A program made the translations under genes and the position numbers. 64,000 nt of DNA from a virus, in the IMG/VR virus record IMGVR_UViG_3300047481_001175, positions 5,209 through 69,208 of that record; one strand, given 5' to 3'. This document shows positions 11,507 through 64,000 of the stretch, in pieces (position 1 is the first letter of the stretch; each line of letters begins with the position of its first letter). The notes beneath the pieces were generated by a model. That model did no database searches. It was not told where the DNA came from and worked only from the letters and a program-made list of their open reading frames with translations.

Positions 11507-14500
11507 ATGGCACTAACATCACCAGGCGTACAAGTTACGATAATTGACGAGAGTTTTTATACACCTGCAGAACCAGGTACAACCCCGTTGATTGTAATCG
11601 CTACGGCAGAGAATAAATCAAATGCAGCCGGAACAGCCACCGCTGCTGCAACAACACAGGCGAATGCAGGAAAAGCATTTAAAGTAACTAGTCAGAGAGA
11701 TCTAGTTGAAAATTTTGGTGTACCTTTCTTTGAAAAGACAGCAAGTTCTTCACCAATCCACGGATCTGAAAGAAACGAATACGGATTACTTGCTGCTTAC
11801 AGTTATTTAGGAGCATCTAATTCAGCATTTATCGTGAGAGCTAATATTGATCTAGATGAATTAGAAGGTGCATCAACAGCCCCGGGAGCAGAACCAGCAG
11901 ACGGAAAATGGTGGGTAGATACACAAGCAACGACCTGGGGAATTCAAGAATGGAACGGCGCCGCAGCAACAGTCACAGGCGGCCAAAAGTTCACTAATAA
12001 AGTGCCTTTGGTGTTTACCGACGACGAAGTTGACCAAATTGACAGCAACGGACCAAAATCTTCTGTGGGTGCAATAGGTGATTACGCTGTGGTGTTTGAA
12101 ACTATCGGCGATGACGGTACTTATACAACGAAATCTGTAGGTAGCTTCGGCGACAAAGAACCTGCAAGAATTTGGTATAAGTCACCAGGTGGTACATATT
12201 CGGGCGGTACGCTAATTGCAGCCGGCGATTGGGTACTACTAGGTAGTCCAGAATGGAAAGCCAGCTGGGCCGCAGTATCTGGTACAGCGGTAAACACTAC
12301 GATTACCACTGGACAGACATTTGTTATCAACGGTACATCAGTGGCTATCGGTGCTGGTGCAAACACTAACGCTAAGTTAACTGCTACCGCTAACACCATT
12401 AATGCAGATCCCACATTATCAGGACAAGGCATCAGCGCAAAAAGAGTTGGATCAGCACTTTACATTTATTCAGACGGATCAGCAACTTTTGACACAGGTG
12501 GCGACTCGACTCAGACCGGTGTTATTGAAATCCAAGCAGGCACAGGCGGCGCGACACTATTAACTGCTCTTGGATATAGCGCCAAAGAATACTATCCTCC
12601 AAGACTCCAAATCAGCCCACACACTACTGTTCCACAGTGGAAAACTGCCAGCGACGAACCAAGACCTAGCGGTTCTGTTTGGGTGAAGACCACCGAACCA
12701 GCTAACGGAGCACGTTGGAGAGTAAAACGTTGGAGTTCTGCTACAAAAACCTGGCAGGCAATTTCAGCACCGTTGTATGCTACAGGTCATGCAGCACTTT
12801 ATTACCTAGATAGATCCGGAGGCGGAGTAAATCTTGCCAAGGATGATGTCTATGTACAATTCAACTGCGATGAAACTTCAACAGCAGCAACACCAGCAGT
12901 GGCAAAATTTAGAGTATTCCATAGAAAGGCTACGGGCAATACAGAAATTGTTTCAGAAGTAATCACCAGTTCAACATTTAGTGCTGGATCAAAAGGTTTC
13001 ACAATGAAACAGTCTCGTACGGGAAGCCTTACATTAGATTCTGTATCAGTATCGTTTACCGCTACTGCAGATGCTACAGACGTAGAATTAATCGCTACTG
13101 CAATCAATGGTGCAGATTTTGGAGTAGATTCTGACGGTGATCAAATTACAAATCTAATCGAAGCCAGCGTTACAGCTGATAACGAACTAAAAATAGTTCA
13201 CAAGAAAGGCGGCGAAATTAGATTTATCGATGGCAGCGGAACTCCTATCGCATTGTTGTTTGCTGATTATAATCTAGACACTGGTGCAGGCACAGCAAAC
13301 TTCTATGCATTACCAGATGATGCCGTTGAAGACTACGTGGCTTCTAATTGGGAGCCGTTAGCAGCAGATGATTTTGCAGCCAGCGGAGATGCACCATTAG
13401 ATGAGCCAGAAGATGGTAGACTATGGTATAATCCAGACTTTGGCGATGTAGATATGTTATATCACAACGGCACTACTTGGGTTGGATACAGAGATGCATC
13501 AGCATACCCTAACTCAGATCCAAACGGTCCGCAGGTAGGCGCCACTGAACCAACTACACAGAGTGATGGTACTCCTTTGGTAGACGGAGATCTTTGGATC
13601 AGCACTGCTGATTTAGAAAACTTCCCAACTATCTATCGTTGGGATGCGGTGGCCGATCTAGAGTGGAAGCTTGTAGATAAAACAGATCAACAGACAGAAG
13701 AAGGTGTACTTTTCTCAGATGCTAGATACGGCACCAGTGGTGCAACAGGAAATACCGCTGCAACTATCAAAGCATTGCTGACAAACAATTATCTAGATCC
13801 AGACGCACCCGATCCAGATTTATATCCACGTGGTATGATGTTATATAACACACGCAGAAGCGGCGGCAATGTCAAACGCTACGAGAATAGTTATATTGAC
13901 ACCGCTTTAGATAACGGAAGATTTAACGACGAATCTATGTCGGCATACGCGACTGATCGTTGGGTTACTGCTTCAGCTAATAATGAAGACGGTTCAGGAT
14001 CTTTTGGCAGAAAAGCACAGCGTAAAGTAGTTGTATCTGCCCTGAAGAGTGTAATCGATACCAGCGCAGAAATCCGTGACGAAGAGCGCAGAAACTTTAA
14101 CTTGATCGCTGCTCCGGGATACCCAGAGGTTCTAAGCAATCTAGTTAATTTAAACATTGATAGAGGAATCACAGCATTCGTAGTTGGTGATACTCCTTTA
14201 AGATTAGCATCTGATGCAACCACGTTAACTAACTGGGGCACCAATGCAGCACTGGTAACTGATAACGGTGATGAAGGTATTGTTACATACGACGAGTATT
14301 GCGCAGTATACTATCCAAACGGATTCACCACAGACCTCAGCGGCGCAAACGCTGTTGTACCAGCTAGCCATATGATGCTAAGAACTATCGCTTTAAGCGA
14401 TGCAGTTAGCTATCCTTGGTTTGCACCAGCAGGCACAAGAAGAGGCGGAATTACTAATGCGACCAGCGTAGGTTATATCGATGCAGCCACAGGAGAATTC

Positions 14501-55893: not shown

Positions 55894-56572
55894 TCCTATT
55901 TCCAAAAAGCTGTAACAGGCTAAGGAAGATATTGATAAAGTTGAGATAGAGACTCAGCGCACCCCAAACTTCCATTTTTCCATCGTTTTCATAGCTGACC
56001 ATTTCACGTAGACGCTGTGTGTCGTAGGCTGTCAGTCCTAGAAACACCAGGACAGCGATCGCTGAAATTACCATCTGCATCACGGTTGAACCAATAAACA
56101 CATTGATCACTGAAGCGATGATGATAGCGATCAGTCCCACGAATAAGAACTGACCAAAGCTGGTCAGATCACGTTTGGTGAAATAACCATAAAAACTCAT
56201 AACACCAAACAGCACGGCCGCGCTCATAAACGCTGACACGATACTGCCCATATTGAAGACAACAAATATAGTGGCGAAACTCAGACCCATCAAGGCAGCA
56301 AATCCGTGTAGGAAAATCTGCAGACTGCCCTTGCTCATACGGTCATAGGCCAAGCTGCCCCCTAGGATAGCCACCAATGGCGCAAAGATCACCAGCCATT
56401 TCATCCATCCAGTAAAGAAAAAAGCCATCAGCGCCGGCGATGCGCTGACCAAAACGCTGACTATCATACTGGTCAGCACGGCCAACATCATATGACCGTA
56501 GATACGGCCCATGGCTGAATTGATCGCACTGGCCGATCTAGAAATACCTGTGTGCATCACTGTGTCAAACAT
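55886..56572 (-). CDS. Bax inhibitor-1 / YccA family membrane protein
   Basis: About seven hydrophobic segments; YGYFTKRDLT, GLTAYDTQ and ALSLYLNFINIF motifs. Confidence 0.9.
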   Translation of the reverse strand: MFDTVMHTGISRSASAINSAMGRIYGHMMLAVLTSMIVSVLVSASPALMAFFFTGWMKWLVIFAPLVAILGGSLAYDRMSKGSLQIFLHGFAALMGLSFATIFVVFNMGSIVSAFMSAAVLFGVMSFYGYFTKRDLTSFGQFLFVGLIAIIIASVINVFIGSTVMQMVISAIAVLVFLGLTAYDTQRLREMVSYENDGKMEVWGALSLYLNFINIFLSLLQLFGNRND

Positions 56573-56601
56573 TTGGACTCCTTGTAGTTGATTGTATAAC
56601 A

Positions 56602-56630
56602 ATTATACAGTATAATATTTACTTGGTCAA
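56602..56630 (-). promoter_or_regulatory. Sigma70-type promoter for the BI-1/YccA gene
   Basis: Minus strand TTGACC-17 bp-TATAAT followed by SD AAGGAG. Confidence 0.7.
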
Positions 56631-56697
56631 CAAAAGAACCCAGGTAATTCAGGGTTTTTTCCAAAGTTCAATAAATACGCATATAATAGGATTCAAA

Positions 56698-57132
56698 ATG
56701 CTCTACGTAATACAAGACCTCCGAGATGATCTACTGGCACTGATCGAAGACGATCCAGTACGCCCAGAATTAGCCGCTGAGTTTAGGGTCAATGAAAACT
56801 CACGGATCTTCGTGCTCCGAGACGATCAAGGCAGTGCTCTGGCAGTGACCTGTGTGAAGTTTCTCAACGAGATTCCTGAAAGTGTGGAAGATCTCGCTGA
56901 TCTAGCGGTAAATTCCAATACCGCTGTGTTCTATACCATTTGGAGCTATGCGCAGGGTGCAGGACGTAGATTGATCCAAGAAGCCAAACAGTACATCGCA
57001 GAGCATCGGCCCGAAGTCAAGACCTATGTGACACTGAGTCCTAAAACAGATATGGCTCGTAGATTCCACCTGAAAAATGGTGCGGAAGTCTACAGAGAAA
57101 ATCCCGACACTGTGAACTATCTCTACAGATAG
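56698..57132 (+). CDS. GNAT-fold protein resembling the malonyl-CoA decarboxylase catalytic domain
   Basis: AVFYTIWS..GAGRRLI...TYVTLSP...RFHLKNGA. Confidence 0.55.
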   Translation: MLYVIQDLRDDLLALIEDDPVRPELAAEFRVNENSRIFVLRDDQGSALAVTCVKFLNEIPESVEDLADLAVNSNTAVFYTIWSYAQGAGRRLIQEAKQYIAEHRPEVKTYVTLSPKTDMARRFHLKNGAEVYRENPDTVNYLYR

Positions 57133-57339
57133 TTATCTACGCTGTGAGGGAGTGTATCTCTCCAAGAAACCCTGCCATTGATCACCGGTGCGCTCAGTGA
57201 GACCCTGGGCTAATTGATCTGCACGACTCTGTGCTAGCGTGCGCTGATGCAGTTGGAATCTAGCCCCTGTGAGATCCTGGCTGACCTGGGTTTCTCCTGT
57301 GACAGAGTTACGAGCTTTGGCTATGAGATATTGTTGCAT
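57133..57339 (-). CDS. Hypothetical protein
   Basis: 68 aa; start 5 nt after TAAATA. Confidence 0.55.
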   Translation of the reverse strand: MQQYLIAKARNSVTGETQVSQDLTGARFQLHQRTLAQSRADQLAQGLTERTGDQWQGFLERYTPSQRR

Positions 57340-57349
57340 ATAGATATTT

Positions 57350-57838
57350 ATGCTAATCGAACAGAGTGCGCACGATCCTGCTCTGTTCAGGATAACGCAT
57401 AAGCCATATGTCCGCATACCAAGGATTACTAAACAGCAGCCACCAATCCACAGGCACGGCCGCATTATAGACTTCAGTGTTGACCCAGCTGCGAGGCCAG
57501 TAATGCACCGAATCGCTCCACGAGATCAACAACTGCTGCTGTGCAGAGTGGAACTGCTCAAGGTACACGATCAACATCAAGTATTTACTGATTTCCATAA
57601 ATATCACTGTATGATCACTGTAGAAGCTCAGCTGTCAGGTCAGGCGGTTTTATCGGGCCCCCAAGGCAGGATATTGATCCGCGATCTAGTGTGGTTGCCC
57701 TTGGATCGGCAGGACATCCTGGAGATCTATTATTGGCACAGTTGGTGGGTCACACAGGGAGTGTATCACTGCTGTTTTTCAATTCCTGGTAAGGTTTCTC
57801 TGTTGAAAGAACAAGAGCCAGCTGGGCAGATGAGCTAG
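57350..57838 (+). CDS. Hypothetical protein (may start at 57611 instead)
   Basis: Open frame; internal TAAATA at 57598-57603 precedes the ATG at 57611. Confidence 0.4.
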   Translation: MLIEQSAHDPALFRITHKPYVRIPRITKQQPPIHRHGRIIDFSVDPAARPVMHRIAPRDQQLLLCRVELLKVHDQHQVFTDFHKYHCMITVEAQLSGQAVLSGPQGRILIRDLVWLPLDRQDILEIYYWHSWWVTQGVYHCCFSIPGKVSLLKEQEPAGQMS

Positions 57839-57967
57839 GCTCATAGACAGCCACATCAGAGGCATTTCCCAAGATGTGCCGCAGATGCTGGGATGATATA
57901 GGCTGTAGACCAAACCTGCCAAGAACAAGGGTGTGGGCAACAAAGTGAGTAGTGTGTAGTAACGCAT
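57779..57967 (-). CDS. Small membrane protein
   Basis: Two hydrophobic segments; start 4 nt after TAAATA. Confidence 0.5.
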   Translation of the reverse strand: MRYYTLLTLLPTPLFLAGLVYSLYHPSICGTSWEMPLMWLSMSLAHLPSWLLFFQQRNLTRN

Positions 57968-58062
57968 CAAGTATTTAAGTAAAAAAAATTATAGCTGCGA
58001 AGCCCGCGCGATTTTTCAGCGCGAAGCGCCAGCGGTAAGCGGTTTTTTTAGGAGCGACGGCA

Positions 58063-58845
58063 GTGGATCCAGTGACCCTGTTTGCCTTGGCCAATGGTGC
58101 TGTGAAGTTGGTCAAAGAAGGCTGTAAGCTATACAAAGATATCAAAGGTGCTGCGGGCGACGTCAAAGATGTGCTGAAAGATCTTGACGATCAATTCCAC
58201 TCAAAGTTCCGCAACAGAGAACCCACTGTACAAGAACGTAATCAGTACATAGAAGAAAAGAATCGAGTCATAGCCTTAAACAAGCGTGATGGTGAATGTG
58301 CTAACATATACCAAGAAATTGGCAATCACTTGGGCACTTACTATGACAACTATTACAAATGTAAAGCAGTGTTCGATGAAGAAGAACGCAGATCAAAGAC
58401 TGAAGTCTACAATGGAGAAGAAAGCCTAGGACGCAGAGCACTGCAACGTGTACTGATGCGCAAACAGCTGGAACAGATGGGCGCAGAACTGAGAGAACTC
58501 ATGGTCTACCAAAGTCCTCCGGAATTGGGCGCACTGTACACAGAAGTAGAAGAAATGATGCAGCGAGTGGGCCGAGAACAGGCAGGTGCTATACGCATAC
58601 AGATGCAGCGCAATGAAGAATTGGCCAAGATCACAGCTAGACGCAGGAAAAAGATACAGTACAGAATCTTGTGCGGAACATTGACCATTACTGTGATACT
58701 GTATCTAATATGGTTGATGTGGAGCATAGTACAGATAAGGATAGATAGACATCCTGAACTGGGTGTGTGCCTATTGCCCAAAGGTGCACCCTTGTATCGT
58801 GAATACAATAGACTACTATGGGTGGACTGTGAGCCCGGCGTATAA
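58063..58845 (+). CDS. Coiled-coil protein with C-terminal transmembrane helix
   Basis: SD AGGAG and GTG start; helical; TM segment ILCGTLTITVILYLIWLMWSIV. Confidence 0.7.
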   Translation: MDPVTLFALANGAVKLVKEGCKLYKDIKGAAGDVKDVLKDLDDQFHSKFRNREPTVQERNQYIEEKNRVIALNKRDGECANIYQEIGNHLGTYYDNYYKCKAVFDEEERRSKTEVYNGEESLGRRALQRVLMRKQLEQMGAELRELMVYQSPPELGALYTEVEEMMQRVGREQAGAIRIQMQRNEELAKITARRRKKIQYRILCGTLTITVILYLIWLMWSIVQIRIDRHPELGVCLLPKGAPLYREYNRLLWVDCEPGV

Positions 58846-58982
58846 GCAGGGAAAAAATTTGGTCGCGCAAAAAATTTGGGTGGAGTACTTAGCTTTTCAA
58901 GGTGGTGATTTTTGACCCCTACCAAAATTGCTGTAGTTAGTGTGCGCTAACATACATGCCGGTCCGCCACCATGCCCCACCA

Positions 58983-59189
58983 TCAGCACCGGTCGGTCAT
59001 CATCGGTGTTCGCTGTTCTGGTCTCAGATGGCCACCACAGAGTCTCTGTGCCGCATCATCCCAATGAGGTATCTGATCGAACATGCTCTGGACCTTCGGC
59101 GGGTCCCAGGGCCTCTGATCGGGCCGCCACCCTGCGCAGCCCTGCAGCAGTATGCAGCTACTTAAGGCTAAGGATAAGATCTTTAACAT
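58983..59189 (-). CDS. Small lipoprotein
   Basis: Signal peptide with lipobox LQGC. Confidence 0.6.
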   Translation of the reverse strand: MLKILSLALSSCILLQGCAGWRPDQRPWDPPKVQSMFDQIPHWDDAAQRLCGGHLRPEQRTPMMTDRC

Positions 59190-59379
59190 CCGCTGTGATC
59201 TCTGTGTGTTGATCCATGACTGCTGCGATCATCAGCTGATGTATCACAACTGCATCTTCCTTATAGCCTGTGGGCATAGCTGAGATCATACGCTCTACTG
59301 CCTGCTGCGATTCGCAGCTCCAAAGCAGATCAGCGATCTGATACTGCTGACGGGTCAATCCCTCTAGTGTGATGGTCAT
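59158..59379 (-). CDS. Hypothetical early protein
   Basis: SD AGGAG; ATGA coupling to the upstream ORF. Confidence 0.65.
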   Translation of the reverse strand: MTITLEGLTRQQYQIADLLWSCESQQAVERMISAMPTGYKEDAVVIHQLMIAAVMDQHTEITADVKDLILSLK

Positions 59380-59549
59380 TGCTGCTCCTGCTGCATCATC
59401 AGTGTTGAGCACCACAGTATGCCCAGTCCTGTGACACTGACTGCCAGGGCCTGCAACAGCTCTGTGTCAGTGAGGCTGTTCTCTACTCCGCCCACGCCAA
59501 ACATAGTAGTGATCAGGCCTGTGATGAAAAGAAAGAATGTTTTAGTCAT
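59376..59549 (-). CDS. 57-aa two-TM membrane microprotein (not in ORF track)
   Basis: MTKTFFLFITGLITTMFGVGGVENSLTDTELLQALAVSVTGLGILWCSTLMMQQEQQ; SD TAGGAG; promoter upstream. Confidence 0.7.
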   Translation of the reverse strand: MTKTFFLFITGLITTMFGVGGVENSLTDTELLQALAVSVTGLGILWCSTLMMQQEQQ

Positions 59550-59617
59550 TGCTGCTCCTAGTTATCCAGTGTATTTGTGTAGTATATGATCGTTCTGAAC
59601 GATCATGCTAATTCCAA

Positions 59618-59965
59618 TCAATCCAACCGGCTACCAGCATAGGCCTTGACACCCAACTTTTCAGTGAGCACTCGAGCGGCCGCTTCTGCACCTGCTTCCA
59701 GGGTGTCCACATTCTGGCAACCGAAGTTTGAGGGATTCCACATCTGGAGACCGCCACCGTAGGCCTTACGGAAACCATTTTCCAGCAAGGCACGACCCAA
59801 CCGGGTGCTACCTTTTTCGTAGACTGTGACCCAGGCAAATCCACAGGCGAACTGATCTCGTCCACCGAGACGCTCACGGAAGAACTTCTCAGCCGCTGCA
59901 TGTGCAGCAGCCCGGGCTTCGGCAACGATTTGGGGAATTTGCTCGGGGGTTGCTCGGGTACTCAT
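59618..59965 (-). CDS. Hypothetical phage early protein
   Basis: CGFAWV...SRLD motif; own promoter and SD. Confidence 0.75.
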   Translation of the reverse strand: MSTRATPEQIPQIVAEARAAAHAAAEKFFRERLGGRDQFACGFAWVTVYEKGSTRLGRALLENGFRKAYGGGLQMWNPSNFGCQNVDTLEAGAEAAARVLTEKLGVKAYAGSRLD

Positions 59966-60027
59966 AGTCGCGCTCCTTTGTGTGTATGTGTTGATTATAC
60001 GGTCAAACTGCCCGCGTGTCAACCAAA

Positions 60028-60342
60028 TTACCAAGCCAGCTCTCGTGCAGGGTATGTGATCTTACCTTCCCAGTCCAGCTGTGATCGTTCGAACTCTGTG
60101 AGGTAGTCATCCTCTACGATCTCTGTCCCAATGACGTATTCCCTGAAGTAGACTGTGTCCTCTTCGATCTGTCCACGCACTTGAGCCAAGACTGCACCAA
60201 CACCTTCGTGGCCTTGCGTGTAGTTCAGGATCACGTAGTCATTGCCGCCCTTCATCTTCCAGTACTGAGGGCATGAACCCGTACCGTCCCAATCGTGGGC
60301 GCCGTAGTTCTCTTGGATCTGTGTAGTAATCATTAGCTTCAT
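60028..60342 (-). CDS. Hypothetical early protein
   Basis: TQIQENYGAHDW...YWKMKGG; own promoter and SD. Confidence 0.75.
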   Translation of the reverse strand: MKLMITTQIQENYGAHDWDGTGSCPQYWKMKGGNDYVILNYTQGHEGVGAVLAQVRGQIEEDTVYFREYVIGTEIVEDDYLTEFERSQLDWEGKITYPARELAW

Positions 60343-60401
60343 GGTTCGCTCCTTGATTCGTTGTCCCAGTTTCAATAGTATAGCACCGGAGATCCAAAAT
60401 G

Positions 60402-60605
60402 TCAACCCCTAATTTGGTCGAAGATCATCTGTTGCAGAGCTGCTACGTCTTCGCGGTCCACATAGAAATCCGTGCGCGGATCCCAGTACTCTCCCTGCTT
60501 GGGATCGTAGTACAAGATCTGTCCGTTAGGGTAGCGGAAGGGACCTTCTAGCCCCGGGCGGGCACCATATCCCAGGAGCAGGTCGTTGACTATACGGTAT
60601 GCCAT
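60402..60605 (-). CDS. Hypothetical early protein
   Basis: GLEGPF...YYDPKQGEYWDPRTD. Confidence 0.7.
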   Translation of the reverse strand: MAYRIVNDLLLGYGARPGLEGPFRYPNGQILYYDPKQGEYWDPRTDFYVDREDVAALQQMIFDQIRG

Positions 60606-60606
60606 G

Positions 60607-60720
60607 TTAGACGCCAGCGATGGTAGTCAATACTCCAGCTGTGACCAACAACACCGTTTGTATGATGCCAGTGATCCAGCCTAGATAGATCAGTGCCAGG
60701 GTTCCGATGAGTTTCAACAT
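60607..60720 (-). CDS. 37-aa hydrophobic microprotein (not in ORF track)
   Basis: MLKLIGTLALIYLGWITGIIQTVLLVTAGVLTTIAGV; own promoter and SD AGGAGCG. Confidence 0.7.
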   Translation of the reverse strand: MLKLIGTLALIYLGWITGIIQTVLLVTAGVLTTIAGV

Positions 60721-60778
60721 AGTTCGCTCCTAAGTTGTTTAGTGTATTTGTGTAGTATATGATCGTTTGGCTCAGTTG

Positions 60779-61018
60779 TCAACCAAGAGCTTTAAATAAC
60801 CCTACAGCCATTGTGGCTAGAGCTACGATGTTCACAGCCATCTGCGGCTTGTTCTGCACACGGAGAGTCCAGAGAAAGAACAGCACAGTGCCCACTGCGA
60901 AGGCAAGGATGTTCCAAAGGTCCCTGTGGTAGGCTGAGCCCAGAGTGTTTAAGACGTGACCTGCACCAATGAAAAAGGCGCCGGTCCACTGTAGGAATTC
61001 GTTGATGTCTAACTTCAT
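60779..61018 (-). CDS. Small three-TM membrane protein
   Basis: 79 aa with three hydrophobic segments. Confidence 0.65.
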   Translation of the reverse strand: MKLDINEFLQWTGAFFIGAGHVLNTLGSAYHRDLWNILAFAVGTVLFFLWTLRVQNKPQMAVNIVALATMAVGLFKALG

Positions 61019-61309
61019 TCAATCACCCGAATCAACTTGAAAACGATCTCCACACTCACTGCAGGTGTATTCTGTCAGACACCTGCCTACATTCTTAGAA
61101 ACATATTTGTGGGTGCAAGGCACTCCATCTTTGTTCAATCTAACCTCACCAGTAGGCCTACCGTACATATACTGACCGCCACAATTGGTGCAGCCTAGAG
61201 TATCTGTGTCAGCATCATAGCCTGCATAGACAGTCTTGTATCGCTGCTGATGCTCAGGCACTGCGACTCGACCGCTGCCATTGCATACTGGACAAACGCC
61301 TCGTTCCAT
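61019..61309 (-). CDS. Zinc-finger protein
   Basis: CPVCNGSG, CTNCGG, CTH and CSECG motifs; own promoter and SD. Confidence 0.7.
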   Translation of the reverse strand: MERGVCPVCNGSGRVAVPEHQQRYKTVYAGYDADTDTLGCTNCGGQYMYGRPTGEVRLNKDGVPCTHKYVSKNVGRCLTEYTCSECGDRFQVDSGD

Positions 61310-61364
61310 TGTTCACTCCTTATTGCTTACTGTACCTACAGTATACTACCTCTTAGCCAAACTG

Positions 61365-61682
61365 TCAAGCCACTCGATACAGCAGCCCTTGCGGAGTAAT
61401 GGTCTTTGAGACTCCCTGCTCTGCCCAGTAGGCTTCCATTTCCCGCAGCAGTTTGAGATTTTTTACAACGGGTTTGTCAATCTTGATTGACACTCGCTTG
61501 ACGTTATAGGCTTCGTAGATCTTGCCCACATAGAGCTCTCCCAGAGCAACCATCATACGGTCCACCTGTAGTTGCACAGTGGCACTCCAACGGCTCTTGT
61601 TGGCAATGCTACGCATACGAGCGTCCTGCGCGGCCCACCATTTGTTAGGGGCCTCTTTGGTGTCTTTTTGAGTTGCTTTCAT
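61365..61682 (-). CDS. Hypothetical basic early protein
   Basis: Own promoter and SD GGAGCG. Confidence 0.7.
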   Translation of the reverse strand: MKATQKDTKEAPNKWWAAQDARMRSIANKSRWSATVQLQVDRMMVALGELYVGKIYEAYNVKRVSIKIDKPVVKNLKLLREMEAYWAEQGVSKTITPQGLLYRVA

Positions 61683-61743
61683 TGGTCGCTCCAAGTAGTC
61701 AGTGTTAGTATTATACCATCATCAGACCAAGTTGTCAACCAAA

Positions 61744-62127
61744 TTATACCCAGCTCTCTACCTGAGGCACTGGTTTCTTTAAGGCTCGTTTGACAAAGCT
61801 CTCAGGTGTGTCATCTACACGGACGAGGACAAACCCCATAGCTTCTACCAGATCTACTTCACAGATCTCAAGCTCTACACCCGCGGCTTCTAGCGCGGCA
61901 TTGAGCTTGGTGAACGCATACTTGACACCTGCATCAAAGGCCGCATACTCGCCGTCATTGACCTCGTCGTAGTCAAACTCTTTAAGCATAACTTCTGCAT
62001 ACTCTTGTCCATCTGCTACGATGAACCGGCCAATCTTCTTCCAGTCGCTCTGCTTCTCGCAGTCAAAGTGGTCACAGGCTTCGTTCATGTCAAAGCCGGC
62101 AAAGTTGTCATATTTAGATTTAGTCAT
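61744..62127 (-). CDS. Acidic early protein
   Basis: 127 aa, D/E-rich; own promoter and SD. Confidence 0.75.
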   Translation of the reverse strand: MTKSKYDNFAGFDMNEACDHFDCEKQSDWKKIGRFIVADGQEYAEVMLKEFDYDEVNDGEYAAFDAGVKYAFTKLNAALEAAGVELEICEVDLVEAMGFVLVRVDDTPESFVKRALKKPVPQVESWV

Positions 62128-62192
62128 TTCGCGCTCCCTTTTGTGTTAATGTGTGTGTATAATAGCACAGTACACACACTTTGTCAACCAAA

Positions 62193-62351
62193 TTATTCTG
62201 CTACACCATCTTCTTCCCAGCCCGTGTAGTCTGCGTTAACGCCCGCACTGTTAACATCTGTATTTTCAGCAATCTCGTCTGCTTGTTCCCAAGTATCTGC
62301 TTCTACTGTTAAGTAATATGTAACTCTTTGTACAAAATAAAATGTAGCCAT
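62193..62351 (-). CDS. 52-aa acidic microprotein (not in ORF track)
   Basis: MATFYFVQRVTYYLTVEADTWEQADEIAENTDVNSAGVNADYTGWEEDGVAE; promoter and SD AGGAGCG. Confidence 0.75.
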   Translation of the reverse strand: MATFYFVQRVTYYLTVEADTWEQADEIAENTDVNSAGVNADYTGWEEDGVAE

Positions 62352-62431
62352 TGTTTCGCTCCTATGTTTTGTTTAAGTGTGTGTATTATAGCACAGCATC
62401 GCTCAAAATGCAAGTGCTGTGCTATGTTATG

Positions 62432-62656
62432 TTAGTCTTCTTCTTGCAGTGCGTCTGCGCACAGTGTCTCAATGCAGTAGTCTGCGCTAAGTGTGCGCAG
62501 CATTGCTGCTAAGTCCCTAAAAGCGTCGTCGCTAATGTCAGCAATGTCGCTGTGCTCGTCTGCAATGTGTGTGTCTAACGCTGCTACTGCTGTAAGCAGT
62601 GCAAATTTAGCGTTATGCAATTTGTCTTTTACTTCTAAACGCTCTTCGTCGTGCAT
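62432..62656 (-). CDS. 74-aa acidic helical microprotein
   Basis: Own promoter and SD AAGGAG; D/E-rich; no proline. Confidence 0.75.
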   Translation of the reverse strand: MHDEERLEVKDKLHNAKFALLTAVAALDTHIADEHSDIADISDDAFRDLAAMLRTLSADYCIETLCADALQEED

Positions 62657-62726
62657 ACTTAGCTCCTTAGTTATACTGCGTTATTGCAGTGTGTGTATAA
62701 TAGCACACTTTGTCCAAAATGTCAAA

Positions 62727-62897
62727 TTAAATTGTAGCGTACTTTCTGTATTCTTTGCCACCTACGCTGCTGTACCATAAGCCATTAGTTTTCTTGTAAT
62801 AGCCCTGCTTGTACCAGTTTTTAATTTGTGTTGCGTGTTGCTGTCTCCCACTTTCTGCAATAGCGTCTTGCAGCGTCATCGCTTTAGTTGTTTGCAT
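62727..62897 (-). CDS. 56-aa basic/aromatic microprotein (not in ORF track)
   Basis: MQTTKAMTLQDAIAESGRQQHATQIKNWYKQGYYKKTNGLWYSSVGGKEYRKYATI; promoter and SD GGGAGCG. Confidence 0.72.
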   Translation of the reverse strand: MQTTKAMTLQDAIAESGRQQHATQIKNWYKQGYYKKTNGLWYSSVGGKEYRKYATI

Positions 62898-62974
62898 AGT
62901 TTCGCTCCCTGCTGTTTTGTTTAAGTGTTTGTATTATACACTATTGCGCAAAAAAGTCAACCAAAATATTGTCT

Positions 62975-62994
62975 GTAAGTAAGTACTTACTTAC
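62975..62994. repeat. Perfect 20-bp palindrome
   Basis: GTAAGTAAGT|ACTTACTTAC. Confidence 0.9.
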
Positions 62995-63349
62995 CCTTGG
63001 CTATTAGCCCAGCGCCGTCTTCTTCTGCGATCACTACACGGCAGGGAGTGAGGTTTTCTGTCAATCTAGCGATCAAACCTTCGCGATCCGCGCCCTGGCC
63101 TAGGAACTGTCCCGTGTCCTTGCGATAGGCCAGCAACAGTCCCTGATGCTGTTCCAGGCGCACTTCCACGACCGCCAGCTCTGTGGTCTCCGTGATTCGT
63201 TGCTCTAGGCGGGTCTTCAATCGCTGGAGATCTTGATCAGAGAACTGCATGGCTTCGAGGAAATCCCTCATGATCCTACGATGGAATCGATCCGTGATCC
63301 ACACGCCCATGATCAGGCCCAAGACCACAGCTAGGATGATGTCTGCCAT
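62987..63349 (-). CDS. Hypothetical protein with N-terminal TM anchor
   Basis: 120 aa; IILAVVLGLIMGVWI. Confidence 0.65.
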   Translation of the reverse strand: MADIILAVVLGLIMGVWITDRFHRRIMRDFLEAMQFSDQDLQRLKTRLEQRITETTELAVVEVRLEQHQGLLLAYRKDTGQFLGQGADREGLIARLTENLTPCRVVIAEEDGAGLIAKGK

Positions 63350-63350
63350 G

Positions 63351-63677
63351 TTAGGTCCTGCGGGGTGTGTGTAGGGCTGCGGCTTCTTTGCGCAGTTGCC
63401 CCGCCCTACGATACATGTCGTCAGCGGCGCGGCTCATAGCTTCAGCTCGGGCTTGGCTCATCTTAGATCCGCCGAACTCTCGCTCGATATAGTATTCACA
63501 GAGTCTATTCTTGATCATAGTAGGTATGTCCATGCCCGTGTCATCAGGACAGATGAATCTCACTGGGCAACGTCCCCAGCCACCGTATTCTAGGAAATCT
63601 GCGTAATAGCGTCTATGATCTTTGTTGTTAGGGTCAAAGGCCACCAAAGGTCTAGATAGGAACTCTAACTTGCTCAT
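63351..63677 (-). CDS. Hypothetical protein
   Basis: RP.VAFDP.NKDHR..Y..F....WG.CPVRF; TAAATA 6 nt upstream. Confidence 0.7.
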   Translation of the reverse strand: MSKLEFLSRPLVAFDPNNKDHRRYYADFLEYGGWGRCPVRFICPDDTGMDIPTMIKNRLCEYYIEREFGGSKMSQARAEAMSRAADDMYRRAGQLRKEAAALHTPRRT

Positions 63678-63706
63678 ATGGGATATTTACCAAAGTTCAT
63701 AACTTA

Positions 63707-63735
63707 ATTGTAACACTTTCTGTTGGTGCTGTCAA
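63707..63735 (-). promoter_or_regulatory. Sigma70-type promoter
   Basis: TTGACA-17 bp-TACAAT. Confidence 0.7.
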
Positions 63736-63736
63736 G

Positions 63737-63766
63737 AAAAAAGGATCCCAGTCCTCTGGGATCCCC
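63737..63766 (-). terminator. Rho-independent terminator
   Basis: Minus strand GGATCCCAG-agga-CTGGGATCC-TTTTTT. Confidence 0.85.
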
Positions 63767-63791
63767 AAGGCTGCGACCGGGAGCGAATCGG

Positions 63792-64000
63792 TTACGCAGC
63801 AACGGCTTCTGTCTTCGCGACAGTGGCCTTATTACCTGCTGGCGCAGGGTTCTTTTTCTCAGCGTAGACAACCGCAGCTTCGATAGCTGGATTGCCTTGA
63901 CCAAACTTCACTGCACGTAGATGCTGTACAGCTTCTGCCTTGGTCATCTCAGAGGGCAGCTCGATGAGCTCCACATCAGTGTGACCGTTCTTGGCCAGGA
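63792..64000 (-). CDS. Small hypothetical protein, 3' part (start outside window)
   Basis: Frame open to the window end: LAKNGHTDVELIELPSEMTKAEAV...; followed by a terminator. Confidence 0.65.
   Translation of the reverse strand, partial: LAKNGHTDVELIELPSEMTKAEAVQHLRAVKFGQGNPAIEAAVVYAEKKNPAPAGNKATVAKTEAVAA

What the first reader, a model, noticed from the sequence alone, without database searches (positions are those of the whole stretch)
62118..62998. An 880-bp early-gene island with a complete, one-strand ban on GA and GG (no UC or CC in the mRNA)
SEEN: between the GA at 62117-62118 and the GG at 62999-63000 I counted 165 G's on the + strand, and every one is followed by C or T. TC and CC remain common on that strand, so the exclusion is strand-specific. 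Flanking DNA on both sides is full of GA, GG and GATC, and the edges are sharp. If a purine followed G about 45% of the time (assumed), the chance is about 0.55^165, roughly 1e-43. The island covers three intact minus-strand microgenes and four strong sigma70 promoters. It holds in all codon positions and in the intergenic DNA. It also constrains the proteins: none has a Pro (CCN) and all Ser codons are AGY. ESTABLISHED: the primary site of termination factor Rho binds 5'-YC (UC/CC) dinucleotides, and Rho silences foreign DNA. 7-deazaguanine hypermodification in coliphage CAjan has been reported at GA and GGC. Any palindrome containing GA, TC, GG or CC (GATC, GGCC, CCGG, CCWGG, GANTC and others) needs GA or GG on both strands. 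INFERENCE: this looks like a sequence-encoded stealth or priority-expression zone for the first genes expressed. Candidate mechanisms: (a) Rho-proof, SD-unoccluded transcripts, which fits the strand and both dinucleotides; (b) a template strand kept free of a phage G modification in GpR context so host RNAP can read it; (c) removal of many restriction sites and CC/TTC PAMs; (d) escape from a YC-specific RNase or ssDNA deaminase/ADP-ribosyltransferase. I know of no description of such an island.
Basis: partly seen in the sequence, partly recalled or inferred. Interest (0 to 1): 0.95.

Follow-up and report, generated by a model that had tools for sequence, protein, structure and literature searches.

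The report
Phage early genes banning pyrimidine-C
Three tiny early genes of an uncultured giant freshwater phage, with their promoters, are written without a single TC or CC on the message strand, and related phages keep the same rule by selection, so something still unidentified in the infected cell must read exactly those two-letter steps.

Summary
Window 62118-62998 has 165 G on the + strand and no GA or GG; the next longest such run in the window is 91 bp. The minus-strand mRNA therefore has no UC or CC. The contig is a fragment of a jumbo myovirus.

The rule is kept by selection:
- Codon choice alone gives P = 1.4e-11.
- 15 distinct islands in relatives hold 23 YC among 2,417 C.
- One gene family stays at 0-0.02 YC/C at only 42-63% nucleotide identity between its deeper lineages.
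- The listed variants from other samples jointly create no GA/GG, against about 5 expected.

The rule is local and patchy. In a 98%-complete relative only 4 of 20 clustered early promoters lie in its island. A complete relative has no island. Lone copies of island genes have regained YC.

My best reading (0.4) is evasion of a YC-reading enzyme that inactivates single-stranded RNA with one hit. Rho is the main rival (0.28). A DpdA-type G modification is not supported.

This scan met the same phenomenon earlier in at least eight other genomes. Three literature searches found no description.

The parts
62118..62998 (-). YC-free island: no TC/CC on the minus (message) strand, which is no GA/GG on the + (template) strand
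62933..62960 (-). promoter P1: TTGACT, 16 nt, TATAAT. It drives the 56-aa gene
62727..62897 (-). microgene g56: 56 aa, pI 9.8, no Pro, 0 YC among 32 C, SD GGGAG. Homologue 90% identical inside the island of L165
62697..62725 (-). promoter P2: TTGACA, 17 nt, TG-n-TATTAT (extended -10). It shares the word TTGACATTTTGGACA with three island promoters of the relative G001
62432..62656 (-). microgene g74: 74 aa, pI 4.3, no Pro, 0 YC among 53 C. Only 6 close homologues in the large protein collection, no family
62385..62413 (-). promoter P3: TTGCAT, 17 nt, TG-n-TATAAT
   Evidence: my own pattern; not listed by the stricter scan
62193..62351 (-). microgene g52: 52 aa, pI 4.1, no Pro, 0 YC among 23 C. 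Homologues at an island edge (L165, 4 of 30) and outside islands (G002/L041, 6 of 33; L021, 8 of 41)
62159..62187 (-). promoter P4: TTGACA, 17 nt, TG-n-TATTAT. With its leader it is still YC-free and drives the 127-aa gene
61744..62127 (-). first gene past the island: 127 aa, 28 YC among 75 C. The ban ends at its fourth codon
62987..63349 (-). gene upstream of the island: 120 aa with a hydrophobic N-terminus and ordinary YC content. The ban starts four codons before its stop
62975..62994 (.). perfect 20-bp A+T-rich palindrome over the stop codon of the upstream gene, at the island's upstream edge. It is not called a terminator by the scan
   Evidence: (self-match on the opposite strand)

Best explanation
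The island is a short array of 'promoter + leader + microgene' cassettes from the hyperplastic early region of a T4-like jumbo phage. Its transcripts have been purged by natural selection of every pyrimidine-C step. The most likely purpose is to make these messages invisible to an enzyme in the infected cell that reads YC in single-stranded RNA and inactivates the molecule with a single hit. That enzyme could be an endoribonuclease or an RNA-modifying enzyme. It could belong to a host abortive-infection or CRISPR-ancillary system, or be the phage's own host-shutoff factor. The island's small, mostly acidic proteins could then still be made while other messages are destroyed. Shown: the ban, its strand, its extent, its maintenance by selection, its cassette mobility and its patchy loss.
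For: Selection, not chance or history.
- P(0 YC | the three proteins, contig codon usage) = 1.4e-11. In 20,000 synonymous resamplings the mean was 22.3 YC and the minimum 8.
- All 57 C in the island's non-coding parts are RC.
- 15 distinct island clusters in relatives: 13,755 nt, 2,417 C, 23 YC.
- Gene families inside islands diverge to 43-50% nucleotide identity with 0-6 YC each, except family E with 18.
- Purged family-C genes are 42-89% identical to one another and stay at 0-0.02 YC/C.
- The 20 listed variant sites from other samples jointly create no GA/GG, with 5.1 expected.

Read on a single strand, along the direction of transcription.
- TC and CC are common on the other strand.
- In the 15 strand-oriented loci examined, SD-preceded ORFs lie on the YC-free strand.
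- The 23 tolerated YC include about ten in stop-codon-proximal, terminator-like elements (taaCC..GCCCgtaaGGGC) and four at one conserved Pro codon. RNAfold draws only some of the first group as paired.

One hit rather than a threshold.
- Islands hug zero: 0, 0, 0, 0, 0, 0, 1, 1, 1, 2, 2, 2, 3, 4 and 7 YC per 0.55-1.6 kb. They do not merely have few.

A patchy pattern, as in an arms race.
- One island in the 353-kb relative, none in the 357.6-kb relative.
- Of 20 clustered early promoters, only 4 lie in or at the island.
- Family-C genes span YC/C 0 to 0.65 across 80 loci.
- Lone copies are relaxed, while copies in company with other island families are purged.

Precedents for defence effectors that read a dinucleotide in single-stranded RNA.
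- SisCsx1 cuts C-C strongly and U-C weakly (PMC6754442, passages read).
- CmdT modifies GA (PMC11618068, abstract).
- Cas13 orthologues differ in dinucleotide preference (PMC11417378, one passage).
Against: - No YC-specific enzyme was found in the phage or a host. The host is unknown, and I did not screen the phage genomes for nucleases.
- Family E, often the first gene of an island, keeps an unpaired TCC/CCC at a conserved Pro codon in 4 of 5 members. At least one exposed YC is therefore tolerated for long periods.
- Other early cassettes with the same promoter type carry 26-42% YC.
- In this window, transcripts from P1-P3 would run on into the YC-rich 127-aa gene, because no terminator was found.
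- No protein family is common to all 15 islands. None has a recognisable anti-defence fold: family C gives pLDDT 92 but a best PDB Z of 4.0.
- With very large phage populations, weak per-site selection could also drive counts to zero. The 'one hit' argument is therefore suggestive only.
Confidence: 0.4

Rival explanations
1. Rho evasion. The six primary binding sites of termination factor Rho each bind a 5'-YC dinucleotide of nascent RNA. A message without YC cannot load Rho, so these early units are transcribed to the end even when ribosomes lag behind.
For: Rho is the only well-known bacterial reader whose specificity is exactly YC, with either pyrimidine 5' of a C. This specificity is my recall; search listing one search shows papers that use 'YC dinucleotide' for Rho's primary binding site. 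Rho avoidance is known to shape coding-strand composition and codon use (PMC13323073, abstract and section 7 read). The island is somewhat more purine-rich than neighbouring early genes (59% against 54%) and has C below G. Rho reads single-stranded RNA, which would fit the YC tolerated in terminator-like elements.
Against: Rho binding is multivalent, so isolated YC should be harmless. Yet islands sit at or very near zero. C content falls only from 22-23% to 18.7%, and the C is moved into AC/GC contexts (o/e 1.6 and 1.9) rather than removed. Of the 20 clustered early promoters of the relative, 16 are followed by ordinary YC content. The trait is lost in many lineages, although Rho is expected in nearly all hosts. 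The genes have strong SDs and should be coupled to translation. Here the transcripts continue into a YC-rich gene.
Confidence: 0.28
2. A DNA-level reader in the transcription bubble. This could be a G modification in GpR context on the template strand (7-deazaguanine or ADP-ribosylation) that blocks RNA polymerase. Or it could be a YC-specific single-strand DNA deaminase or nuclease, like APOBEC or T4 endonuclease IV, acting on the displaced non-template strand.
For: The ban can be stated equally well for either DNA strand. CAjan-type dPreQ0 at GA/GGC and the T4 endonuclease IV preference for ssDNA TCA are recalled, not checked here. DarT2 reads TNTC in ssDNA (PMC11543638, passages). Among the 23 tolerated YC only 2 are followed by A, against 34% in the background. 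This is a weak and non-independent hint of a longer motif.
Against: No TGT/DpdA homologue in this contig or in the 98%- and 100%-complete relatives. The only related hit is a 26-bit N-terminal QueC-like match in one of them. A genome-wide modification or a bubble-attacking enzyme should weigh on all strongly transcribed early cassettes, yet 16 of 20 are ordinary. E. coli DarT1 has no consensus motif. Where one homologue has YC, the others have AC, TT, TA, GC, TG, CA or GT. YT is not the dominant replacement, so a C-to-T mutational footprint is not seen. The message strand is A-rich, not T-rich.
Confidence: 0.12
3. Translation or folding optimisation. Without UC/CC nothing can pair with the GGAG Shine-Dalgarno, so the messages stay open and are translated at once.
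For: Any perfect complement of GGAG, GAGG or AGGA contains UC or CC (logic). The leaders are CA-rich.
Against: The island RNA is more structured than mononucleotide shuffles, -0.202 against -0.162 +/- 0.011 kcal/mol/nt. P(unpaired) of its four SDs is 0.32-0.57, inside the neighbours' range of 0.20-0.92. A quantitative benefit would not give a total ban.
Confidence: 0.04
4. Chance, an assembly artefact, or one recent insertion of foreign DNA that merely carries an odd composition.
For: The island has lower G+C (0.38-0.46) than its flanks (0.47-0.57), and its cassettes are mobile.
Against: Odds are 10^-39 or smaller. A contig spans the whole stretch in a second run of the possible source sample (X2), and partial contigs occur in runs of three other studies. 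There are 15 diverged islands under the same rule, and polymorphism obeys it. No other pair of dinucleotides gives a run above 205 bp in two 350-kb relatives.
Confidence: 0.01

Closest known systems
PeSL (promoter-early stem-loop) cassettes of T4-type phages (Arbiol et al. 2010, PMC2839356; abstract read)
   Same: Both have strong sigma70-like early promoters repeated in front of small ORFan genes in a hyperplastic region. Cassettes are exchanged at the repeats. Contigs from other samples replace this window's cassettes with 318, 189 or 918 other letters, with breakpoints in the promoter modules. The island also sits at different places in the gene order of relatives. Relatives have hairpin + T-run elements between cassettes.
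   Different: PeSLs explain the architecture and mobility, not the dinucleotide ban. I know of no such ban described for them (abstract only read). In this window no terminator-like hairpin was found between the cassettes.
Rho avoidance by coding-strand purine bias (Dierksheide et al. 2026, PMC13323073; abstract and section 7 read)
   Same: In both, selection on coding-strand composition, reaching codon choice, keeps a single-strand RNA reader off nascent messages. The banned step equals Rho's binding dinucleotide.
   Different: That bias is genome-wide, graded and compositional (excess C, T richness). Here it is local (0.9 kb of about 350 kb), essentially total, specific to a dinucleotide with little change in base composition, and lost in many lineages.
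Dinucleotide-specific defence effectors on single-stranded RNA: SisCsx1 (C-C, weakly U-C; PMC6754442), CmdT of CmdTAC (GA; PMC11618068), Cas13 orthologues (PMC11417378)
   Same: These show that immune effectors can read a two-letter step in ssRNA and shut down expression. A message without the step would be immune. The Csx1 preference overlaps the banned pair.
   Different: No such effector is known for these phages' unknown hosts. SisCsx1 is archaeal. CmdT's own motif GA occurs 58 times in this island's message, so CmdT itself is excluded. No phage has been reported to answer such an effector by motif-free genes.
Motif depletion in viral genomes against host restriction factors: TC depletion attributed to APOBEC3, CpG depletion against ZAP, ACA-less mRNAs resistant to MazF (all recalled, not checked here)
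   Same: The logic is the same: a sequence-specific host enzyme selects against its own target motif in the virus.
   Different: Those depletions are partial and genome-wide or gene-wide. Here a class of two dinucleotides is absent from a bounded set of transcription units, at the cost of all proline codons.

Membership tests
PeSL-type early cassette array (T4-type phages) | strong sigma70-like early promoter in front of each small gene | tested here: met
   Three sites match 11 of 12 consensus positions and a fourth has TTGCAT; three of the four have the extended -10 TG.
PeSL-type early cassette array (T4-type phages) | stem-loop terminator joined to the promoter | tested here: inconclusive
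   No terminator-like site was found inside the island; there is only a 20-bp A+T palindrome at its upstream edge. Relatives do carry hairpin + T-run elements before promoters.
PeSL-type early cassette array (T4-type phages) | modular shuffling by recombination between cassettes | tested here: met
   Joints at promoter modules carry other inserts in contigs of two other studies. The island lies at another position of the shared gene order in L006.
Rho-avoiding coding sequence | few or no YC, C not above G, purine-rich message strand | tested here: met
   0 YC; C 18.7%, G 22.1%, purine 59.1%, against 54.3% in flanking early genes.
Rho-avoiding coding sequence | expression depends on Rho when YC is restored | not testable with these tools
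   Needs reporter assays with bicyclomycin or rho mutants, or in-vitro Rho assays.
7-deazaguanine (DpdA) DNA modification with GA/GGC specificity | phage-encoded DpdA (TGT-family transglycosylase) | tested here: not met
   PF01702: 0 of 3 records (this contig and the 98%- and 100%-complete relatives), while the same search found the family in 14 of 14 control genomes. This contig is estimated 19% complete.
7-deazaguanine (DpdA) DNA modification with GA/GGC specificity | preQ0 synthesis genes (QueC and others) | tested here: inconclusive
   PF06508: one 26-bit match to profile positions 4-68 of 210 in G001 only. QueD, QueE and FolE were not searched.
APOBEC-like deamination footprint | lost YC replaced mainly by YT (C to T) and a T-enriched strand | tested here: not met
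   Apart from gaps and retained TC/CC, the replacements at homologous sites are AC 16, TT 12, TA 8, GC 7, TG 6, CA 6, GT 6 and others. The message strand is 22% T and 37% A.
CmdTAC-type evasion (GA in mRNA) | absence of GA from the message | tested here: not met
   The message strand has 58 GA and 32 GG, which are the TC and CC of the + strand.
Motif-free transcript evading a sequence-specific ssRNA nuclease or modifier | motif absent from whole transcription units, with rare tolerated copies that may be structured | tested here: met
   23 YC among 2,417 C in 15 islands. About ten lie in terminator-like elements after stop codons, only partly drawn as paired by RNAfold.
Motif-free transcript evading a sequence-specific ssRNA nuclease or modifier | a cognate enzyme present in the host or the phage | not tested
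   The host is unknown. The phage genomes were not screened for nucleases: 158 of 425 ORFs of G001 have no homologue in G002, too many to rank.

The most novel reading that the evidence does not exclude
Aquatic bacteria, or these giant phages themselves, possess a still undescribed enzyme that cuts or modifies single-stranded RNA at pyrimidine-C steps. The islands are 'stealth operons' that carry the counter-measures or the functions needed while that enzyme is active. On this reading the abundant island families are new anti-defence or takeover proteins. One of them, the 112-aa 'SEQGMQ' family, has more than 7,700 metagenomic relatives and a confident fold with no clear match among solved structures. 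Their mRNAs would be the first natural example of a whole operon recoded, proteome included, to lack a two-letter target.
Probability: 0.35. Interest if true: 0.92.

Novelty: new variant of a known kind. Interest (0 to 1): 0.85.

Why it matters
A total, strand-specific ban on two dinucleotides removes an amino acid from the proteins and is held across lineages that share less than half of their nucleotides. That is one of the strongest sequence-level selection signals one can find, and its cause is unknown.

It points to a reader of YC in single-stranded nucleic acid that matters greatly during the first minutes of infection. If it is a nuclease or a modifying enzyme, they flag a new immune effector or shutoff factor, and a set of abundant small proteins that probably oppose it.

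The islands also give a ready test object: native against YC-restored versions of the same genes.

Tried and rejected
- Nucleotide searches of the phage collection with the 3-kb region found nothing, near or distant.
- Pfam and PHROGs gave no significant family for the three microproteins, their two neighbours, or five island proteins of relatives.
- The Protein Atlas gave only unnamed viral clusters, with scores of 0.78-0.85.
- Rfam found no match with E up to 1 in 61500-63500.
- Family C folds with pLDDT 92. Foldseek found nothing with E <= 0.001 in the PDB, and VIA-align's best Z was 4.0, below its own background. There is no functional lead from the fold.
- No RNA holder was listed for the stretch, so expression, transcript ends and cleavage could not be examined.
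- I looked for a phage-encoded reader by gene content. 158 of 425 ORFs of the island-bearing G001 lack a homologue in island-less G002. With two genomes that is too many to be informative, so I dropped the approach.
No family is common to all 15 islands: this window has G, g74 and H, and others have E, B, C, A, D or F in varying sets. Rejected.
- I asked whether the trait is a general feature linked to expression level. Per-gene YC/C in G001 has a median of 0.41 and a lowest non-island value of 0.23, against 0.00 for the island gene. Rejected.
- A hint that tolerated YC are mostly YCT and rarely YCA rests on about 14 independent sites. I keep it as a lead only.
- Supplementary files were not consulted. 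They might hold Rho-target or cleavage-motif tables relevant to the rivals.
Full report
**1. The observation**

The + strand of window 62118-62998 holds 165 G. 69 are followed by C, 96 by T, and none by A or G. TC (58) and CC (32) are common on the same strand.

- The run is bounded by GA at 62117-62118 and GG at 62999-63000. The next longest GA/GG-free run in the window is 91 bp.
- In the whole 69,208-bp contig, 53.4% of G are followed by a purine. The longest gaps in GA (912 bp) and in GG (901 bp) coincide here; the next longest are 150 and 262 bp.
- With independent sites the odds are 10^-39 at the local rate and 10^-55 at the contig rate.
- Only four promoter cores of about 30 nt are repeated.
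- The three proteins have no Pro, all 7 Ser codons are AGY, and no Phe, Ile, Leu or Val codon ends in C.

**2. What the DNA is**

The window is bases 5209-69208 of a linear viral contig estimated 19% complete.

- It encodes a 1,144-aa tail sheath, a large terminase and helicases.
- Its terminase is 55% identical to that of Pseudomonas jumbo phage PA5oct. Relatives reach 353-358 kb.
- The runs that hold it are labelled freshwater, lake water or wastewater metagenomes.

The island lies in a block of small minus-strand genes, each with a near-consensus sigma70 promoter. It contains P1, g56 (56 aa, pI 9.8), P2, g74 (74 aa, pI 4.3), P3, g52 (52 aa, pI 4.1), and P4 with the leader of a 127-aa gene. 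The ban ends at the fourth codon of that gene. Stated for the message strand, the rule is: no UC and no CC, so every C follows a purine.

**3. Selection**

- Given the three protein sequences and the contig's codon usage, the probability of zero YC is 1.4e-11. In 20,000 synonymous resamplings the mean was 22.3 and the minimum 8.
- The 57 C outside the coding regions are also all RC.
- Of 20 loci found through the two flanking genes, 7 carry a YC-free run of 344-921 bp on the message strand, and 3 of those runs are cut by a locus end.
- A scan for a shared 15-nt promoter word, and a search with one island protein family, brought more.
- In all I found 31 islands in 15 distinct clusters: 13,755 nt and 2,417 C, of which 23 are YC. 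The neighbouring early genes have about 40%.
- Recurrent gene families inside islands have diverged to 43-50% nucleotide identity and still carry 0-6 YC each. Family E carries 18, mostly at one conserved Pro codon.
- In contigs from other samples, the 20 listed variant sites inside this island jointly create no GA or GG, while 5.1 would be expected for changes of those kinds. One A>G that alone would make GG is paired with a neighbouring G>C. That table was truncated by the tool: 100 further differences were not shown.
- Where one homologue has YC, the others show AC, TT, TA, GC, TG, CA or GT. C-to-T is not the dominant change, and the message strand is A-rich. This is selection, not a deamination footprint.

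**4. Local, mobile and patchy**

- A 98%-complete relative (353 kb) has exactly one island of 921 bp; its next longest run is 133 bp. A 100%-complete relative (357.6 kb) has none, with a maximum of 174 bp. No other pair of dinucleotides gives a run above 205 bp in either genome.
- In the first relative, 20 strong promoters cluster at 310-328 kb on one strand. Four lie in or at the island; two of them are followed by 0 YC in 250 nt, one by 5 of 48 and one by 10 of 51. The other 16 are followed by 26-42% YC.
- Per-gene YC/C in that genome has a median of 0.41 and a lowest non-island value of 0.23. The trait is therefore not a general property of early or highly expressed genes.
- The island sits at a different place in the shared gene order than in this window.
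- Contigs from two other studies join across this window's cassettes, with 318, 189 or 918 other letters in between and breakpoints in the promoter modules. This is the modular shuffling described for PeSL cassettes of T4-type phages (PMC2839356, abstract).
- The 'SEQGMQ' family C (about 112 aa) had 7,733 hits with E <= 0.001 among the 8,000 candidates scored. 116 of the 120 best have no Pro.
- Over 80 viral loci the YC/C of family C runs from 0 to 0.65. Purged members are only 42-89% identical to one another, yet stay at 0-0.02. Members 75-89% identical to a purged one sit at 0.06-0.18 among ordinary flanks.
- Purged copies have other island families beside them, while lone copies are relaxed.
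- The homologues of g52 behave in the same way: 0 of 23 here, 4 of 30 at an island edge, and 6 of 33 and 8 of 41 outside islands.
- The island-less genome has a 600-bp stretch at YC/C 0.22 around its g52 homologue, which looks like a decaying island.

The constraint is therefore ancient. It is kept in some lineages, lost in others, and acts on whole arrays rather than on one gene family.

**5. Who reads YC?**

That means the RNA, or one DNA strand in the transcription bubble.

*DNA-level readers are disfavoured.*
- No DpdA/TGT gene was found in any of the three records. There is only a 26-bit partial QueC-like match in one.
- A genome-wide modification or a bubble-attacking enzyme should also weigh on the other 16 early cassettes.

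*Folding and SD exposure is not supported.*
- The island RNA is more structured than shuffles of the same composition.
- Its SDs are no more open than the neighbours'.

*Rho fits the specificity exactly.*
- It is known to shape coding-strand composition (PMC13323073).
- However, its multivalent binding should tolerate scattered YC.
- Base composition barely changes: C goes from 22-23% to 18.7%, moved into AC/GC contexts.
- Most early cassettes are not purged, and many lineages have dropped the trait.

*A single-hit reader explains more.*
- It accounts for counts that hug zero, for the patchy maintenance typical of an arms race, and for the restriction to a few operons.
- About ten of the 23 tolerated YC lie in terminator-like elements just after stop codons, and four at one conserved Pro codon. 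RNAfold draws only some of the first group as paired.
- Effectors of this kind exist. SisCsx1 cuts ssRNA at C-C and weakly at U-C (PMC6754442). CmdT modifies GA in mRNA (PMC11618068). Cas13 orthologues have distinct dinucleotide preferences (PMC11417378).
- CmdT itself is excluded, because the message keeps 58 GA.

I therefore rank the explanations as follows:

| Explanation | Confidence |
|---|---|
| Unknown YC-specific RNA nuclease or modifier, host- or phage-encoded | 0.40 |
| Rho evasion | 0.28 |
| DNA-level reader | 0.12 |
| Translation or folding | 0.04 |
| Chance or artefact | 0.01 |
| Something not thought of | remainder |

*Weak points of the favoured reading.*
- No such enzyme has been identified.
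- Family E keeps an exposed YC.
- No island protein has a recognisable function.
- In this window the island transcripts probably run on into a YC-rich gene.

**6. Novelty and earlier work**

- Three full-text searches found no description of such islands.
A two-strand variant was also noted.
- From those notes I took the leads to the Rho purine-bias paper, to CmdTAC and to PeSL, and I checked each at the level stated above.

**7. Limits**

- No RNA data were available.
- The host is unknown.
- The variant table was truncated.
- Island detection used my own thresholds.
- Recalled facts are marked as such.

Noticed in passing
G002 (record of L005) 11626-12225, + strand; seen as L041: A 600-bp stretch of two early cassettes has YC/C of 0.21-0.24, while the flanks have 0.31-0.55. 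It holds a homologue of this window's 52-aa gene (6 YC among 33 C). It looks like a decaying 'ghost' island in a genome that has no intact one.
   Followed up: partly
window 62151-63012 (joints in contigs of runs X5 and X8): Relatives in other samples replace the whole island or single cassettes by 189, 318 or 918 other letters. The breakpoints lie in the promoter modules, and some contigs 'go back' between modules. This points to cassette exchange, and perhaps circles, of the PeSL kind.
   Followed up: partly
L116 4572-4907 and 80 loci L178-L257: The 112-aa 'SEQGMQ' family had 7,733 hits among the 8,000 metagenomic candidates scored. It has 18 invariant residues, a confident alpha/beta model (pLDDT 92) and no convincing match in the PDB (best Z 4.0). 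It is a very abundant phage protein of unknown function.
   Followed up: partly
window about 56000-64000 against the rest: The small-gene early block has G+C of 0.47-0.57, against 0.39 for the window as a whole. The island itself drops back to 0.38-0.46.
   Followed up: no
G001 310-328 kb (- strand) and G002 11-23 kb (+ strand): Early promoters come in dense same-strand clusters of 20 and 17 sites. Many share TTGACA-NN-TTGG just after the -35, a conserved feature beyond the sigma70 consensus.
   Followed up: no
G001 71437-71634 (- strand): A 311-aa open frame has a 26-bit match to the N-terminal PP-loop part of QueC only. It could be any PP-loop ATPase, and there is no TGT partner in the genome.
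   Followed up: no
window 62975-62994: A perfect 20-bp A+T-rich palindrome spans the stop codon of the 120-aa gene, exactly at the upstream edge of the island.
   Followed up: no
15 island clusters: Of the 23 tolerated YC, 10 are followed by T and only 2 by A, against 34% A in the background.
   Followed up: partly
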